NCBI RefSeq assembly: GCF_030013205.1
Contig: NZ_CP122648.1
Length of the DNA: 64,000 bases
Direction: 5' to 3' (one strand)
DNA from: Escherichia coli
GTDB lineage: Bacteria; Pseudomonadota; Gammaproteobacteria; Enterobacterales; Enterobacteriaceae
Position numbers: made by a program. This document shows positions 21,264 through 30,200 of the stretch, piece after piece. Numbering within the stretch: position 1 is the stretch's first letter; every line of letters starts with the position of its first letter.

Positions 21264-24200
21264 TGATAATCCTCCCGCCAGAAGAATAAAACATAGCCCG
21301 GTATACAAGTGTATACCGGGCTTTTTTGTGCACAGAAAACCCCCAGCTAGGCTGGGGGTTCCGGAAAGCTTTCAGCTTTGAGCCAGTTATTAAAACCCCT
21401 TTTGATTTGTTAAAACATCTTGCGGTCTGGCAACTGCAAGTGTCAAACAAGAAATCAAAAGGGGGTCCCAATGGGGAACGAAAAGAGCTTAGCGCACACC
21501 CGATGGAACTGTAAATATCACATGGTTTTTGCGCCAAAATACCGAAGACAGGTGTTCTACAGAGAGAAGCGTAGAGCAATAGGCAGTATTTTGAGAAAGC
21601 TGTGTGAGTGGAAAAGCGTACGGATTCTGGAAGCTGAATGCTGTGCAGATCATATCCATATGCTTGTGGAGATCCCGCCTAAAATGAGCGTATCCGGGTT
21701 TATGGGATATCTGAAAGGGAAAAGCAGTCTGATGCTTTACGAGCAGTTTGGTGATTTGAAATTCAAATACAGGAACAGGGAGTTCTGGTGCAGAGGGTAC
21801 TACGTCGATACAGTGGGTAAGAACACGGCGAAGATACAGGATTACATAAAGCACCAGCTTGAAGAGGATAAAATGGGAGAGCAGTTATCGATTCCCTATC
21901 CGGGCAGCCCGTTTACGGGCCGTAAGTAACGAAGTTGGATGCAAATGTCAGATCGTGTGCGCCTGTTAGGGCGCGGCTGGTAAGAGAGCCTTATAGGCGC
22001 ATTTGAAAAACCTCCGGCTATGCCGGAGGATATTTATTGATCAAAATTCCATTTTCACCGTGAATTGCACTTCACGCGGATCGCCAATCTGATTCCCCAG
22101 ATTATTTGTGGCGATGGAAGAGGTGTAATACGTTTTATCAAACAGGTTTTTGACGTTTAATTGCAGTGTGACCGGATACTGCAATTTCATTTTGTATGCG
22201 GCGAAGGCATCGGCAACGAAATAGCCTGGCAGATAATAGTCAGCCCCATTGGTTGCCGAACGACGGCTTACGCCATGTCCACCACCGCCAAACGTCAGTG
22301 TGTTATTGCCTGGCATGTTATGAATGTCATAGGTCAGGAATAGCGAACCGGTATGACGAGGAACATTCGGCAATGGTTTCCCTGCATAATCAGGATCCTC
22401 CAGAACCTTAGCATCGGTATAGTCGTAGCTGGCAATGATATTAATGTTTTCAGTTAATGCTCCCGCAAGGTCGACTTCTACCCCTCTTGAACGAACGCGG
22501 CCTGCCGTTTTGGCGATGGTTTCATCACCAATACTTTCGGTATACAACACGTTACGTTTATGGATATCAAACAGCGCAATATCTGCGGTTATACCATCGA
22601 ACAGCTCGAATTTTGCCCCGACTTCGTAAGCATTAGATGATTCCGGTGGAAGATCTCCGATGTAGCTGGCAATTGACGATTGCGGCATAAATGTTTGCGA
22701 ATAATTAGCAAATAAGGATACCGATGGCGTCAGTTTGTAGACTAACCCCAGTTTGGGCGTCCATTGTTCATCGCGGCTGTCAGTATTGACATTAAAAGGA
22801 CGGCCTTTACCCGCATACTGCGTGTAATACTGATAGCGGATCCCGGCGACGGCAATCCAGTTATCGGTCAGATAGAGCGCGTCCTGTGCATACGCTGAGT
22901 AGCTCTCCTGTTTGATCGTCTGATCACTGTCCGACGCCGAAACCGTTGTGCATTTGCTGGTATTGCCATAAACGGGGTTGTAGATATTGAAATCTTTAGC
23001 GTTTTTACAGCGAATCATATCTGTGCGCAGAAGATCATAATATTCATATGACACCCCACCCAGAATCTCATTATAGAACCCAGCAATATCAACATTCCCT
23101 TGCAGATCCGCACGAGTAGAATGCATACGCTGGGTAGATCCCTGAGTTGCATCAACACGCCGTGTCAGCGTTCCTGTCGTTGCATCATACGCGGTAACAC
23201 GAGCCTGATTGTCGCTGTATTTATCCTGGCTGTAGCTGTAATCAAAGCGCGCTGTCCACTGGCTATTGAGATGATATTCTGCGTTGAGTTGCGCCAGATC
23301 GGACTGACCATTTGTAATATTAAACGGTTCGTCAAAACGTATTTTTCGATCAACGTTTACGGGCTGTTTCGTCGTAAGGTCGAAAATCGTTCCACGATCG
23401 AACGGAGTTTTATAGTCCCGATGGGAATAGAGCATGGTTACTGTTGCATTATCACCAAACCAGGTGAGTGACGGGGCAATAAATGTACTGCGCTCTTTAC
23501 CGAAGTTTCGCCAGTAATCTTCATCCTGCACTTCCCCCGTCAGGCGGTATGCCAGCTGAGTGCCTTCAATGGGACCTGTGATATCAAGTTGCCCAGTGCC
23601 TCCGCCAAAACTGGAGGACGTGGCTGAGACAGAACCATGGAATGTTTTTTCCGGGCGCTTGGTCACGACGTTAATCAGTCCACCAGGATCGAGAATGCCA
23701 TACAGCGTGGAGGCCGGACCTTTTAGCACTTCCACACGTTCTGTGGCGGCGTTGAAACTGCGAGGAAGTACAGTTCGCAGGCCGTTGGTCATGATGGAGC
23801 CATCCCGGTTAGCACCAAACCCACGACGTACAAAGGCGTCCTGAGTTCCGCCTAATGTATTGGTCTGTACCACGTTACTGACGTTATAAAGCGCTTCATC
23901 CAGCGTCGTCGCATTCTGATTTTCCAGAACCTGATCGCTAACCGTATTGACCACCTGCGGGATATCCAGCATCGGCATATCGGTTAATGTCGCCGTGGAA
24001 GTGCTCAGAGGTTGATAACCATCGGTCGCCTCAGTTGCGGTATTTGCATCCGCTGTCACAGTGATTGTTTCGCCATCTTTGGTCGTTGCAGTGTCGGTTG
24101 CATGAATCATTGGTGCTGCAAAGAGCAGTGAAAAGAGCGCCCGACCTTTGATTCCTGAGAATGAAGGTGTGAACTTAGCCATTTAGTCTGTTATCCCAAA

Positions 24201-27200: not shown

Positions 27201-30200
27201 TTATTCTACGTGGCGGGCAGACGACATTACTGCTGGGGAGCGCCGTATCGGGGGCGTTGTTAGTCATCCTGGCGGATAGCATTGGTCGTTTGGCTTTTTT
27301 GCCTTTGCAACTGCCTGCCGGAATCATTATTTCATTGATTGGTGGACCATTCTTTTTGCTACTGCTCTGGCAGCGCAGGAACAGTTTTTAATGGGAGTTA
27401 TATGCGTTTATTTTTTTCTCTGCTGATACTGTTGTCATTCTTTGCCCGCGCGACAGAACCTGTTCAGGTCTTTACTGATGATTTAGGGCGCAAAGTTACT
27501 GTTCCTGCTCATCCAAAGAGAATTGTCTCTTTACACGATCTTGATATCACTATTCCTCTGATTGAGCTCGGTGTACCTCCTGTCGCCAGCCACGGGCGAA
27601 CCCGGCCTGATGGTAGCCATTTCATTCGATCAGGCGCGTTATTGACAGGTGTCGACTTTGATAATTCATCGATCGCTTTTATTGGCACCGCTGATATTGA
27701 TATTGAAGCGATTGTGGCGGCAAAGCCTGACCTGATCATCACAGAACCGACCCGTAATACGCCCATTGAACAACTGGAAAAAATTGCGCCCACGGTGAGC
27801 ATTGATCATCTCAAAGGAGGCGCGCCAGAAATCTACCGCAAGCTGGCAGAACTTACAGGAACGCAGTCGCAGCTGGCGATACTTGAACGCCGCTATCAGG
27901 CACAAATCAATGCGCTGAAGGCGACGCTGGACAGCCAAAAAATAACGGTATCGGTGATTCAGGCAAATCAGGGAAAAATTAATGTGATGCATAGCTATCA
28001 TTCGCTGGGGCGGGTATTACGCGATGCTGGTTTTCGCTTTCCGCCGCTGATTGAGAGCATTCCTGAAGGTGGGCGAATGGATGTGAGCGCAGAGCGTTTA
28101 CCTGAACTGGATGCCGATTTTGTTTTTGCAACCTGGCGCGGTGACACCGGTGGTAAACCTCAGGATGAGCTGGCAGCAATGGAAAAAGTCATGCCGGGAT
28201 GGTGTCAGTTTCTGACGGCCTGTCGTTCCGGGCGCTATGTGCTGATTTCTCGTGAAGAGGCGATTTCTAACTCCTTTGCATCTCTGGGGCTGATGGCTGC
28301 GCAGATACAATCACAAATTGCGGGACGACCTCTACCGGAGGCTAAATGATCCAGAAAGACAAAACGCGGGTTGATATTTATGGTGAGCGTTTTCGCACTC
28401 GCGCGAGTCAGTTAACGCCTGGGTTAAGAGCTGTCGCAAGCTACATTAATGAGCATCGTGAAGTGGTACTCGAGCAAACGGCGATGGAAATTGCGGCCAC
28501 GTTGAACACTTCCGATGCCACAGTTATCAGGGCTATACAGGCTCTGGGGTTTGCCGGGCTGCGTGATCTGAAACGCACTCTGGAACAGTGGCTTGGTCCA
28601 GCCCTTAGTTCCAGCGAAAAGATGTCTACGACGGTGAGTAACTTGACGAGCGATGTTAACACCGCAATCGACTTTGTTCTTGAAGGGCATTTGTATACTT
28701 GTAATGTCCTGTCAGAGCCTGAAAACCGCCACGCGCTTGCGCAAGCTGTAGCGTTGTTGGTGCAGGCACGGCAAGTCGCTATTTTTGGCATTGGCGCTTC
28801 GGGTATCCTGGCGGACTATACCGCACGACTATTCAACCGCATAGGTTTGCCTGCCACGGCACTAAACCGTACGGGTATTGGCCTTGCCGAGCAACTGATC
28901 GCGCTTCAACGTGGCGATGTTCTGATCATGATGGCGCAAAAATCTGCGCACCGGGAAGGGCTGACAACGCTTCGTGAGGCGAGGCGGCTGGGGATCCCTG
29001 TTATTTTGCTGACAAACGCGCTGGATTCACGTTTTAGCAAAGACGCCAGTATCGTGATTCATGTTCCGCGCGGGGATGAAAAGGGGAAAACGCCACTACA
29101 TGGTACGGTATTGTTGTGTCTGGAAATGATTGTCTGGTCGGTAGCTTCCGCAGTGCCGCAGCGTGCGGTTAAAACCATTAAGCGAATTAACGATTTCCAT
29201 CGAGGACTGAAAACGGGAAGAAAGAATGGCTAATCTGGGCTGAGACCGGTAGCAGCACCGGCCTCTTTTCAGGAATGTTAAATCCCCGGTTGCAGAATAC
29301 GGATATTCATCTCCAGCACGTCGCCTTTTACGGCTTCGCTGTACGCCTTCATGTGCGGGGTTTGCAGATGCGCTTCAAGATGCGCGATGCTTTCCCACTG
29401 CTCAATCATCACGATAGAATCCGGTGCCATAGACTGGAAACTCACGCCAGCAGCGCAATCCACCATTGGCGCATAGCCGTGGCAACCTTCTTCTTTCAGT
29501 ACGGTTGGAACGATTTTAGCAAACTGATCCAATACTGCCTGACGGTGATGTTGACCAGGACGAGTACGGATTTCTGCGATTACGGTAAGCATGGTTAACT
29601 CCTTCTAAAGCCTGAGCTCTAGTTAACGAAAATTTCCACAAGATGCTTGCGATATTCTTCAGTATAGCGGGGAACATCAGGCATTTTTATCACGTCATTA
29701 GCGATAAATGTCGGCAGCGGTTCCATGCCAAGGAATTGGTTTGCTTTATGGAACGGCAGATACACACCGTCAACGCCAACGCCGTGGAAGAACTGATCTT
29801 TTTCGGTGAAGGCTTCCATTGGTGCGTTCCAGGTCAGAGAAAGCATATATTTTTTGCCCTGTACCAGGCCGCCGGAACCGTATTTTTTCGACGGATCTTT
29901 GCGGGTACGACCATCGCTGGCATACAGAGTCCCGTGACCTTCGGTGAATACATCATCAATGTATTTTTTCACTGTCCACGGCGCGCCCATCCACCAGCCT
30001 GGCATCTGCCAGATCACCACATCAGCCCAGAGAAAGTTTTGTACTTCCGCTTTGACATCGTAGTCGCTGTCGGCGCGAACGATGCGAACATCATGCCCGA
30101 GGTCGCGCAGTGTGCCATCCGCGACTTCGGTCAGGGTGTCGTTCAGTTGACCATTGGAGTGGGCGAATTTTTTCGCGCCGTTGATAATCAGGATGTTGCT

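What the first reader, a model, noticed from the sequence alone, without database searches (positions are those of the whole stretch)
22041..29233. Accessory TonB-dependent receptor plus FecBCDE-type ABC importer whose operon ends in a translationally coupled RpiR/SIS regulator
Between the parE terminator/IS200 and ygiN there is a roughly 7 kb module: a TonB-dependent receptor (minus strand) divergent from an operon of ATPase, two FecCD permeases, class III binding protein and an RpiR-family (HTH + SIS) regulator. Consecutive genes overlap by 4 bp, and the regulator start overlaps the binding-protein stop. Siderophore-type uptake systems are normally controlled by Fur or sigma/anti-sigma pairs; a SIS-domain (phosphosugar-sensing) regulator embedded in the transporter operon suggests the substrate may be a sugar-derived metal chelate or a non-iron compound. 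As far as I recall, parE and ygiN are adjacent in K-12, so this is strain-variable cargo.
Basis: partly seen in the sequence, partly recalled or inferred. Interest (0 to 1): 0.65.

Follow-up and report, generated by a model that had tools for sequence, protein, structure and literature searches.

The report
The known E. coli fit iron-uptake island
This 7.2-kb block is the already published and named "fit" iron-uptake system of E. coli (fitA, fitBCDE, fitR), whose RpiR-type regulator FitR was shown in 2008 to be an autorepressor acting alongside Fur, so the finding is real but ordinary; only its substrate and FitR's signal remain unknown.

Summary
Window 22041-29233 holds a TonB-dependent receptor on the minus strand. 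It is divergent from an operon of ATPase, two FecCD permeases, a class III binding protein and an HTH_6+SIS regulator, inserted between parE and ygiN.

It is not new. Every published primer for fitA, fitB, fitC, fitD, fitE and fitR (Ouyang & Isaacson 2008, PMC2593036) maps to the expected gene. The binding protein matches solved FitE (PDB 3BE5/3BE6). A 2026 paper lists a 7193-bp "fit operon" between ygiN and parE.

Published experiments show that FitR binds the fitA-fitB promoter region and represses the system, and that Fur represses it independently. This contradicts the idea that a SIS regulator replaces Fur control.

The sugar-chelate idea finds no support:
- All 72 FitR orthologues lack the canonical SIS phosphate loop.
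- No sugar genes co-occur with the cluster.
- Some orthologous operons carry a PepSY_TM (siderophore reductase family) gene.

Modest additions from this work:
- A conserved candidate FitR operator, TGTAGTAGT(A/C)AA, sits over the -35 of both promoters, from Escherichia to Xanthobacter.
- The island is present in 1870 of 5426 complete E. coli genomes.
- fitE starts at 27402, so fitD and fitE do not overlap.

The substrate and the FitR effector remain unknown.

The parts
19374..21266 (+). parE (topoisomerase IV subunit B), left flank of the island
   Evidence: TIGR01055, 1250 bits. RefSeq annotation of the identical region.
21295..21322 (.). Bidirectional terminator hairpin after parE. This fit+ allele differs from the K-12 and E. 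coli C spacer hairpin.
   Evidence: Terminator scan and junction alignment.
21333..22037 (+). IS200C copy (tnpA 21471-21929) inserted between the parE terminator and the fitA stop codon. It is not part of the fit system.
   Evidence: NF033573, 146.8 bits. Rfam STnc490 at 21338-21461. Absent from O55:H7. This junction is present in only 30 of 5426 genomes. The element ends are approximate.
22041..24182 (-). fitA, a TonB-dependent outer-membrane siderophore receptor. It has a TonB box ETITVTA and no N-terminal signalling domain.
   Evidence: TIGR01783, 371.5 bits against a 223.5 cut-off. fitA qPCR primers map at 23362-23438. Aligns to FoxA residues 131-819 of 820. N-terminal translation.
24281..24299 (.). 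Fur-box-like site (GTAATTGAGAATCATTCAA, 12 of 19) over the -10 region of the fitA promoter
   Evidence: conserved in enterobacterial loci. Fur repression is published in PMC2593036.
24311..24322 (-). Candidate FitR operator A: TGTAGTAGTAAA. Read towards fitA it is TTTACTACTACA, overlapping the putative -35.
   Evidence: Footprint alignment. The 12-mer occurs in 65 loci against 0.18 expected. It lies inside the fragment that FitR shifts in EMSA.
24473..24484 (+). Candidate FitR operator B: TTGACTACTACA, overlapping the putative -35 (TTGACT) of the fitBCDER promoter
   Evidence: 42 loci, including Xanthobacter L075 and MAG L070.
24509..24527 (.). Fur-box-like site (GAGAATGAGTTTTATTTTT, 13 of 19) downstream of the fitB promoter
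24556..25365 (+). fitB, ABC ATPase (GTG start)
   Evidence: Best match is FecE-type NF008409, 284 bits, below its equivalog cut-off. fitB primers map at 24713-24799.
25362..26345 (+). fitC, FecCD-family permease. Its start overlaps the fitB stop (ATGA).
26342..27391 (+). fitD, FecCD-family permease. The start is 26342 (ATGA overlap, Shine-Dalgarno GAGGA) or 26354 (RefSeq).
27402..28349 (+). fitE, class III periplasmic siderophore-binding protein, with a solved structure
   Evidence: PDB 3BE5/3BE6, E=2.2e-195 over residues 19-315. Primers map. Start codon analysis.
28346..29233 (+). fitR, RpiR/MurR-family (HTH_6+SIS) autorepressor. Its start overlaps the fitE stop (ATGA, Shine-Dalgarno GGAGG).
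   Evidence: Pfam. The fitR1, fitR2 and qPCR primers map here. Function is published in PMC2593036.
29246..29271 (+). Terminator-like hairpin plus T-tract after fitR
29278..29592 (-). ygiN, right flank of the island
   Evidence: RefSeq annotation of identical regions and junction alignment.

Best explanation
The module is the fit (fitA / fitBCDE-fitR) iron-uptake system of E. coli, a strain-variable island that replaces the 47-bp parE-ygiN spacer.

Proposed mechanism:
- FitA is a TonB-energised outer-membrane receptor for a ferric chelate.
- FitE carries the chelate across the periplasm to the FitCD permease, which is powered by the FitB ATPase.
- The two divergent promoters in the 373-bp intergenic region are repressed independently by Fur-Fe2+ and by FitR. 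FitR is the last, translationally coupled gene of the operon, so it is an autorepressor.

Shown by others: the gene set, iron/Fur repression, FitR repression and promoter binding, and the FitE structure.

Inferred here:
- FitR binds the conserved TGTAGTAGT(A/C)AA boxes that overlap the -35 of each promoter.
- FitR acts as the substrate-specific half of an AND gate (low iron AND an inducer). The inducer would be sensed by a non-canonical SIS pocket and is probably not an ordinary phosphosugar.
- The substrate is a still unidentified xenosiderophore.
For: Identity with fit:
- All 2008 primers for fitA-E, fitR and the promoter map in the expected genes with 0-3 mismatches (primer table).
- FitE matches PDB 3BE5/3BE6 at E=2e-195. 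That structure is cited as FitE.
- PMC12928451 lists a 7193-bp fit operon between ygiN and parE.

Regulation: PMC2593036 reports lacZ, qRT-PCR and EMSA data for FitR and Fur.

Transport roles: NCBIfam and Pfam assignments. FitA has a TonB box and no signalling domain.

Ferric-siderophore role:
- The nearest solved receptors are FetA, FoxA and FhuA, and the nearest binding proteins are YfiY and FhuD.
- A PepSY_TM gene sits inside the operon in L018, L019 and L068.
- The Klebsiella fitA homologue is iron-induced.

Operator: two inverted boxes are conserved in 42-65 loci against 0.18 expected. They persist in alpha-proteobacterial loci where the Fur boxes are lost, and in 'type 2' loci where FitR is paired with a receptor only 35% identical to FitA.

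SIS pocket: [AG]-Q-K-S-[AP]-H-R-E replaces S-x-S-G-x-[ST] in 72 of 72 orthologues, and several other pocket-region residues are invariant.
Against: - The substrate has never been identified. The literature says only that enterobactin is not it.
- The published fitR effects are modest, at 2- to 5-fold.
- The FitR boxes overlap -35 hexamers, so part of their conservation could reflect promoter function rather than repressor binding.
- No ligand has been shown for FitR. Pure autoregulation without an effector is possible.
- The Fur-box matches are only 12-13 of 19.
- I could not read the 2006 primary paper.
Confidence: 0.93

Rival explanations
1. The SIS domain of the regulator senses a phosphosugar. 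The transporter would then import a sugar-derived metal chelate or a non-iron sugar-like compound, and the regulator would take the place of Fur or sigma/anti-sigma control.
For: The regulator has a genuine SIS domain and keeps the first G-x-G-x-S-G loop. RpiR-family relatives with solved structures bind phosphosugars (hits to MurR and NanR-type entries). The substrate is still unknown. L018 and L019 carry two PstS-like (phosphate-binding-protein-like) genes inside the operon.
Against: Fur control is demonstrated, and Fur-like boxes are conserved. The canonical phosphate-binding S-x-S-G-x-[ST] loop is absent in all 72 orthologues. No kinase, phosphatase, glycosidase or sugar-catabolic gene is conserved near FitR in 75 genomes. 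The receptor, permeases and binding protein all fall in siderophore families. PepSY_TM genes, recalled to be a FoxB-type reductase family, occur in some operons.
Confidence: 0.1
2. FitR has no small-molecule effector. It is a simple negative autoregulator that damps and stabilises expression of a Fur-controlled transporter, and its SIS domain serves only for oligomerisation.
For: Only modest 2- to 5-fold effects are reported, with no inducer known. The canonical ligand loop is degenerate. The regulator sits last in its own operon, the classic autoregulatory layout.
Against: The replacement motif Q198-K-S200-x-H202-R-E204-G and other SIS residues (S152, R242, H252) are invariant across orthologues that are only 53-99% identical overall. 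This argues for a conserved functional pocket. FitR is kept next to a receptor even where the ABC genes are absent and it is not in the transporter operon (type 2 loci).
Confidence: 0.25
3. The cluster is a decaying or non-functional remnant in this strain, for example because of the adjacent IS200.
For: An IS200 sits 3 bp from the fitA stop codon. A published fitA mutant showed no strong phenotype; this is my recollection of the 2006 paper, which I could not read.
Against: All six ORFs are full length and 98-100% identical to the O55:H7 proteins. The IS lies outside coding and promoter sequence, and its own end hairpin can terminate fitA transcripts. The island is retained intact in 1870 genomes.
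Confidence: 0.03

Closest known systems
E. coli fit system (fitA, fitBCDE, fitR) of strain i484. Sources: Ouyang & Isaacson, Infect Immun 2006 (not readable here); Open Microbiol J 2008 (PMC2593036); FitE structure by Shi et al., Proteins 2009 (PDB 3BE5/3BE6).
   Same: Same genes in the same order at the same chromosomal site. Primers match. FitE matches the PDB sequence at E=2.2e-195. The island is the same 7193-bp size.
   Different: Only allelic differences of 0-3 mismatches per primer, plus an IS200 inserted next to the fitA stop in this lineage (30 of 5426 genomes).
Fhu (FhuA/FhuCDB) and Fec (FecABCDE) TonB-dependent siderophore uptake systems with type II ABC importers
   Same: The same four-component architecture: receptor, class III binding protein, FecCD permeases and ATPase, with Fur control. 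Best family hits are FecE, FecC, FecD and FhuB.
   Different: All scores fall below the equivalog cut-offs (for example FecE 284 against 375, FhuA 230 against 803), so it is a distinct system. There are two separate permease genes rather than a fused FhuB. FitA has no N-terminal signalling domain, and there is no FecIR-type sigma/anti-sigma pair. An RpiR-type repressor is present instead.
RpiR/MurR family regulators (HexR, MurR, NanR of Vibrio vulnificus 4IVN, RpiR/AlsR)
   Same: An N-terminal HTH_6 and a C-terminal SIS domain. It acts as a repressor that binds its own promoter region. The candidate half-site TGTAGT resembles the TGTAAT half-site I recall for HexR operators.
   Different: It controls a siderophore transporter rather than sugar catabolism. 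The canonical SIS phosphate loop S-x-S-G-x-[ST] is replaced by [AG]-Q-K-S-[AP]-H. The effector is unknown. No NCBIfam equivalog is reached (best 79 bits against a 920 cut-off).
Substrate-responsive regulators of siderophore uptake (FecIR, FoxIR, and AraC-type PchR, YbtA and AlcR)
   Same: The proposed logic is the same: Fur provides the iron signal and a dedicated regulator provides the substrate signal.
   Different: The protein family and the sign of control differ. FitR is a repressor, not an activator or a sigma factor. Substrate responsiveness of FitR is inferred, not shown.

Membership tests
E. coli fit system | Six genes: fitA divergent from fitB-fitC-fitD-fitE-fitR, with the published roles (receptor, ATPase, two permeases, binding protein, regulator) | tested here: met
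   ORFs, family assignments, and the description in PMC2593036.
E. coli fit system | Sequence identity to the published locus (primers designed on strain i484) | tested here: met
   18 primers map in the expected genes and orientations, 11 of them with 0 mismatches and the rest with 1-3.
E. coli fit system | FitE protein equals the crystallised FitE (PDB 3BE5/3BE6) | tested here: met
   E=2.2e-195, with residues 19-315 aligned to 1-297 of the chain.
E. coli fit system | Chromosomal position between parE and ygiN | tested here: met
   PMC12928451 lists GR22 ygiN..parE, a 7193-bp fit operon.
E. coli fit system | Repression by FitR and by Fur, and FitR binding to the fitA-fitB intergenic DNA | not testable with these tools
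   Experimental results are in PMC2593036. Here there are only conserved candidate sites.
TonB-dependent siderophore receptor (TIGR01783) | Score above the curated cut-off, with plug plus barrel covering the whole protein, and a TonB box | tested here: met
   371.5 bits against 223.5, residues 73-713. The TonB box ETITVTA follows the signal peptide.
FecA/FoxA-type transducer receptors | N-terminal signalling domain and an adjacent sigma/anti-sigma pair | tested here: not met
   FitA residue 34 aligns to residue 131 of full-length FoxA. No ECF sigma or FecR gene is in the locus.
FecBCDE / FhuBCD equivalogs | Score above the NCBIfam equivalog cut-offs | tested here: not met
   FecE 284 against 375, FecC 238 against 396, FecD 186 against 406, and FecB-type 36 against 320. 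The proteins belong to the superfamilies only.
RpiR/MurR family transcription regulators | HTH_6 DNA-binding domain plus a C-terminal SIS domain | tested here: met
   PF01418 at 1e-9 and PF01380 at 1.3e-13. PDB relatives are 8K3B, 8JU9 and 4IVN.
Phosphosugar-binding SIS domains | Canonical phosphate-binding loop S-x-S-G-x-[ST] after the third beta strand. The role of this loop is from my knowledge of the GlmS, MurR and NanR structures. | tested here: not met
   FitR has A197-Q-K-S-A-H202 where 8K3B has SQSGRS, 4IVN has SSSGST and 5UQI has SNSGET. The substitution is invariant in 72 of 72 orthologues.
Fur regulon | A Fur box at the promoter | tested here: inconclusive
   The best matches are 13 of 19 and 12 of 19 to GATAATGATAATCATTATC. 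They are strongly conserved across Enterobacterales. Functional Fur repression is published.

The most novel reading that the evidence does not exclude
FitR would be the founding member of a widespread clade of RpiR-type repressors that control TonB-dependent siderophore uptake. The clade spans Enterobacterales and some alpha-proteobacteria. Its remodelled SIS pocket ([AG]QKS[AP]HRE in place of SxSGx[ST]) would sense the imported siderophore or a derivative rather than a phosphosugar. Its operator would be TGTAGTAGT(A/C)AA over the -35. Fit would then be a Fur-AND-FitR gated xenosiderophore system. Neither the operator nor any effector is reported in the literature I could search.
Probability: 0.35. 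Interest if true: 0.5.

Novelty: already known. Interest (0 to 1): 0.15.

Why it matters
As a discovery it does not matter, because the system has been named since 2006 and is used as an ExPEC/AIEC marker. The remaining interest is narrow. Fit is a siderophore-type importer with a dedicated RpiR/SIS repressor, and both its substrate and that repressor's signal are still unknown. The conserved operator boxes and the non-canonical SIS motif found here give concrete handles: mutate the boxes, and screen ligands against the SIS domain. These could settle how a 'sugar-sensor' fold was recruited to iron acquisition. They could also identify which xenosiderophore about a third of complete E. coli genomes, and many plant-associated enterobacteria, are equipped to take up.

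Tried and rejected
1. I tried to read the 2006 primary paper by PMC id and by DOI. It is not held, so statements about substrate tests rest on PMC5907654 and on my memory.
2. I looked for mobility signatures at the island borders. There are no direct repeats, integrase or tRNA. The island simply replaces the 47-bp spacer.
3. I looked for conserved neighbours that could reveal the substrate, by clustering all ORFs of at least 150 aa from 75 loci. 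Only the receptor, the ABC genes and a FhuD-like binding protein recur across genera. SDR, LysR, inositol, amino-acid ABC and FepA-like genes are lineage-specific synteny.
4. The simple sigma-70 scan found no promoter in the fitA-fitB spacer. The promoters proposed here (TTGACT-17-CAAACT for fitB; TTTACT-17-TTGAAT with an upstream TG for fitA) are weaker than its threshold and are inferred from conservation only.
5. I considered DNA looping between the two FitR boxes. The spacing varies (158, 165, 178-188 and 255-264 bp) without conserved helical phasing, so I dropped the idea.
6. A third recurring TGTAGTAGT hit at about 7450-7580 in type 2 loci lies in the receptor's C-terminal coding sequence. 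I dismissed it as coding conservation.
7. Literature searches for FitR plus RpiR, and for RpiR plus siderophore plus SIS domain, returned nothing beyond the 2008 paper.
8. I did not run structure prediction or fold search on FitR, because the tools return no coordinates from which a pocket could be judged.

Full report
**What is there.**
- a 713-aa protein on the minus strand (22041-24182);
- divergently, five plus-strand genes at 24556-25365, 25362-26345, 26342-27391, 27339/27402-28349 and 28346-29233.

NCBIfam assigns them as follows:
- The first is a TonB-dependent siderophore receptor (TIGR01783, 371.5 bits against a cut-off of 223.5).
- The next three match FecE-type ATPase and FecC/FecD/FhuB-type permease models, all below the equivalog cut-offs.
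- The fifth matches siderophore substrate-binding proteins.
- The last matches MurR/RpiR regulators.

Pfam confirms HTH_6 (1e-9) and SIS (1.3e-13) in the last protein. The flanks are parE, an IS200 transposase, ygiN and mdaB.

**It is the published fit system.** Ouyang & Isaacson (Open Microbiol J 2008, PMC2593036) describe the E. coli fit system. Its genes are fitA (receptor), fitB (ATPase), fitC and fitD (permeases), fitE (binding protein) and fitR (HTH plus sugar-isomerase-domain protein).
- I mapped their primers onto the window. The fitA, fitB, fitD and fitR qPCR pairs, the fitR1 cloning pair and the promoter forward primer match exactly. The fitC and fitE pairs and the other promoter and fitR2 primers match with 1-3 mismatches. 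Each falls in the expected gene and orientation.
- The binding protein matches PDB 3BE5/3BE6 at E=2.2e-195. That is the FitE structure of Shi et al., Proteins 2009 (citation seen).
- A 2026 comparative paper lists 'GR22, ygiN..parE, 7193 bp, fit operon' (PMC12928451). This is the same length as 22041-29233.
- fitA is also used as an AIEC/B2 marker (PMC9409007). A Klebsiella homologue is iron-induced (PMC5907654).

**Published mechanism.** From the 2008 paper:
- FitR over-expression represses fitA and fitB promoter fusions about 3-fold.
- A fitR knockout derepresses them, and complementation restores repression.
- His-tagged FitR shifts the fitA-fitB intergenic fragment specifically.

So Fur and FitR act independently. 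The substrate is still unknown, and enterobactin is excluded (PMC5907654).

**Details checked and corrected.** From:
- The ATGA overlaps are real for fitB/fitC and for fitE/fitR. The fitR start is preceded by GGAGG.
- fitC/fitD overlap by ATGA if fitD starts at 26342, which has a better Shine-Dalgarno (GAGGA) than the RefSeq start at 26354.
- fitD and fitE do not overlap. The true fitE start is 27402, shown by a GGGAG Shine-Dalgarno, a typical signal peptide, the RefSeq annotation, and PDB 3BE5 beginning at residue 19. The TTG at 27339 is an ORF-finder artefact.
- FitA has a TonB box (ETITVTA). It lacks the N-terminal signalling domain of FoxA/FecA-type transducers, consistent with the absence of a sigma/anti-sigma pair.

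**Island structure and distribution.**
- In K-12 MG1655, ygiN (b3029) and parE (b3030) are adjacent with a 47-bp spacer. E. coli C is the same.
- In fit+ strains the island replaces this spacer from the parE stop codon to the ygiN stop codon. It brings its own bidirectional terminator after parE and a terminator after fitR. There are no repeats or recombinase.
- 1870 of 5426 complete E. coli genomes carry it.
- The IS200C copy (about 21333-22037; Rfam STnc490 at 21338-21461) sits between the parE terminator and the fitA stop. It is at this site in only 30 genomes, mostly porcine ETEC and O139 strains. It does not interrupt any fit gene, and all six proteins are 98-100% identical to those of O55:H7.

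**Beyond E. coli.** A genome-collection scan with FitR returned 75 loci. Locating the six Fit proteins in them shows two architectures.
- Type 1 is the complete fitA / fitBCDE-fitR cluster. It occurs in Escherichia, Enterobacter, Kosakonia, Citrobacter, Klebsiella, Raoultella, Kluyvera, some Erwinia, Rosenbergiella and Acerihabitans. It also occurs in an alpha-proteobacterium (Xanthobacter, L075; FitR 53%, FitA 58% identical).
- Type 2 occurs in Pantoea, Serratia, Rahnella and some Erwinia and Enterobacter. Here a 63-69% identical FitR lies divergent from a different receptor (about 35% identical to FitA). In 24 loci that receptor is followed by a FhuD-like binding protein, and no ABC membrane genes are adjacent.
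- Three type 1 operons carry an extra PepSY_TM gene between fitE and fitR (L018, L019, L068). By my recollection this is the family of FoxB-type inner-membrane ferric-siderophore reductases.
- Two of those three (L018, L019) also carry two PstS-like binding-protein genes.
- No sugar kinase, phosphatase, glycosidase or siderophore synthetase is conserved next to FitR.

**Candidate operator (new here, modest).** I aligned the fitA-fitB intergenic regions of 20 loci. Two blocks stand out in otherwise unalignable AT-rich DNA.
- Near fitA: TGTAATTGAGAATCATTCAA-CATG-N5/6-TGTAGTAGTAAA.
- Near fitB: TTGACTACTACA, followed about 30 bp later by AAAGAGAATGAGATTTATTTTT.
- The AT-rich palindromic parts are Fur-box-like (12 of 19 and 13 of 19).
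- The other element, TGTAGTAGT(A/C)AA, occurs once per promoter in inverted orientation. It overlaps a -35-like hexamer (TTTACT towards fitA, TTGACT towards fitB).
- Across 1.5 Mb of fetched loci, the 12-mers occur in 65 and 42 loci against 0.18 expected. In the 64-kb window they occur only at 24311-24322 and 24473-24484.
- They persist in the alpha-proteobacterial loci, where the Fur-like boxes are gone, and in type 2 loci in front of the unrelated receptor.
- This co-variation with FitR, rather than with Fur or with the receptor sequence, makes them the likely FitR operator. They lie inside the fragment that FitR shifts.
- The 2008 paper states that the binding site was not known. I found no later report.
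- Caveat: overlap with the -35 means promoter function contributes to the conservation.

**The SIS domain.** HMMER alignments to solved RpiR/SIS proteins place FitR residues 197-204 (A-Q-K-S-A-H-R-E) opposite the canonical S-x-S-G-x-[ST] loop. The aligned sequences are SQSGRS in 8K3B, SSSGST in NanR 4IVN and SNSGET in 5UQI. To my knowledge this loop holds the sugar phosphate in GlmS-, MurR- and NanR-type SIS domains.
- In 72 of 72 FitR orthologues the loop is [AG]-Q-K-S-[AP]-H-[RK]-E-G.
- The first loop, F-G-I-[GN]-A-S-G, is kept.
- R242, P250-L-H-G and others are invariant.

A conserved but remodelled pocket argues against an ordinary phosphosugar effector. Less strongly, it also argues against having no effector at all.

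**Most likely mechanism.**
- Shown by others: a Fur- and FitR-repressed TonB/ABC iron-chelate importer.
- Inferred here: FitR occupies the TGTAGTAGT boxes over both -35 regions, and its own synthesis is coupled to fitE translation. It would provide a second, substrate-related input, so that the system is fully expressed only in low iron and in the presence of its chelate. This is analogous in logic, not in protein family, to FecIR or to AraC-type siderophore regulators.
- The substrate is probably a xenosiderophore. E. coli has no associated biosynthesis genes, and the nearest binding-protein relatives, YfiY and FhuD, are hydroxamate or citrate-hydroxamate binders. Nothing here identifies it.

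**Verdict.** It is wrong in treating the module as uncharacterised and in inferring non-Fur control. The sugar-chelate idea is unsupported. Novelty: already known. Interest is low. The residual open questions are the substrate, the FitR ligand and the operator.

Noticed in passing
window 21333-22037: An IS200C copy (tnpA 21471-21929) has its 5' region matching Rfam STnc490 (21338-21461, 146.5 bits). It is inserted between the parE terminator and the fitA stop codon. This exact junction occurs in only 30 of 5426 complete E. coli genomes, and all eight records listed are from pigs (ETEC and O139:H1 strains among them). The window is 100% identical over 8.4 kb to strain ETEC1748.
   Followed up: partly
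window 30204-30312 (mdaB-qseC spacer): ygiZ (DUF2645) lies between mdaB and qseC in K-12 and E. coli C. It is absent here and in O55:H7. This is a second presence/absence polymorphism about 1 kb from the fit island, possibly linked to it by lineage.
   Followed up: no
L018 6926-9992, L019 6926-9992, L068 8779-9927: In Erwinia sp. JUb26, Pantoea coffeiphila and Acerihabitans arboris, the fit operon has an extra PepSY_TM membrane protein gene between fitE and fitR. In the first two there are also two paralogous PstS-like (PBP_like_2) binding-protein genes. The role of phosphate-binding-protein-like genes in a siderophore operon is unexplained.
   Followed up: partly
L017, L026, L030-L032, L035-L037, L041, L043-L045, L048, L050, L053-L061, L063, L069: A 'type 2' arrangement: a FitR orthologue (63-69% identical) is divergent from a different TonB-dependent receptor (about 35% identical to FitA). 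In 24 loci a FhuD-like binding protein follows. There is no adjacent ABC permease or ATPase, yet the same TGTAGTAGTAAA box and Fur-like box lie in front of the receptor.
   Followed up: partly
L075 (Xanthobacter sp. YC-JY1) 3332-10858; L070 (MAG): A complete fit cluster, including fitR and both TGTAGTAGT boxes, occurs in an alpha-proteobacterium. The Fur-like boxes are not conserved there. This implies inter-class transfer of the whole module together with its own regulator and operator.
   Followed up: partly
window 26342-26356: RefSeq annotates fitD from ATG 26354. An in-frame ATG at 26342 overlaps the fitC stop (ATGA) and has a better-placed Shine-Dalgarno (GAGGA, 7 nt upstream). The annotated start may be 4 codons too short.
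   Followed up: partly
window 24183-24555: The fitA-fitB intergenic region is much more divergent within E. coli (90-95% identity in 1073 of 1870 genomes) than the whole module (mostly 97-99%). One extra copy of the intergenic region lies on a plasmid record.
   Followed up: no
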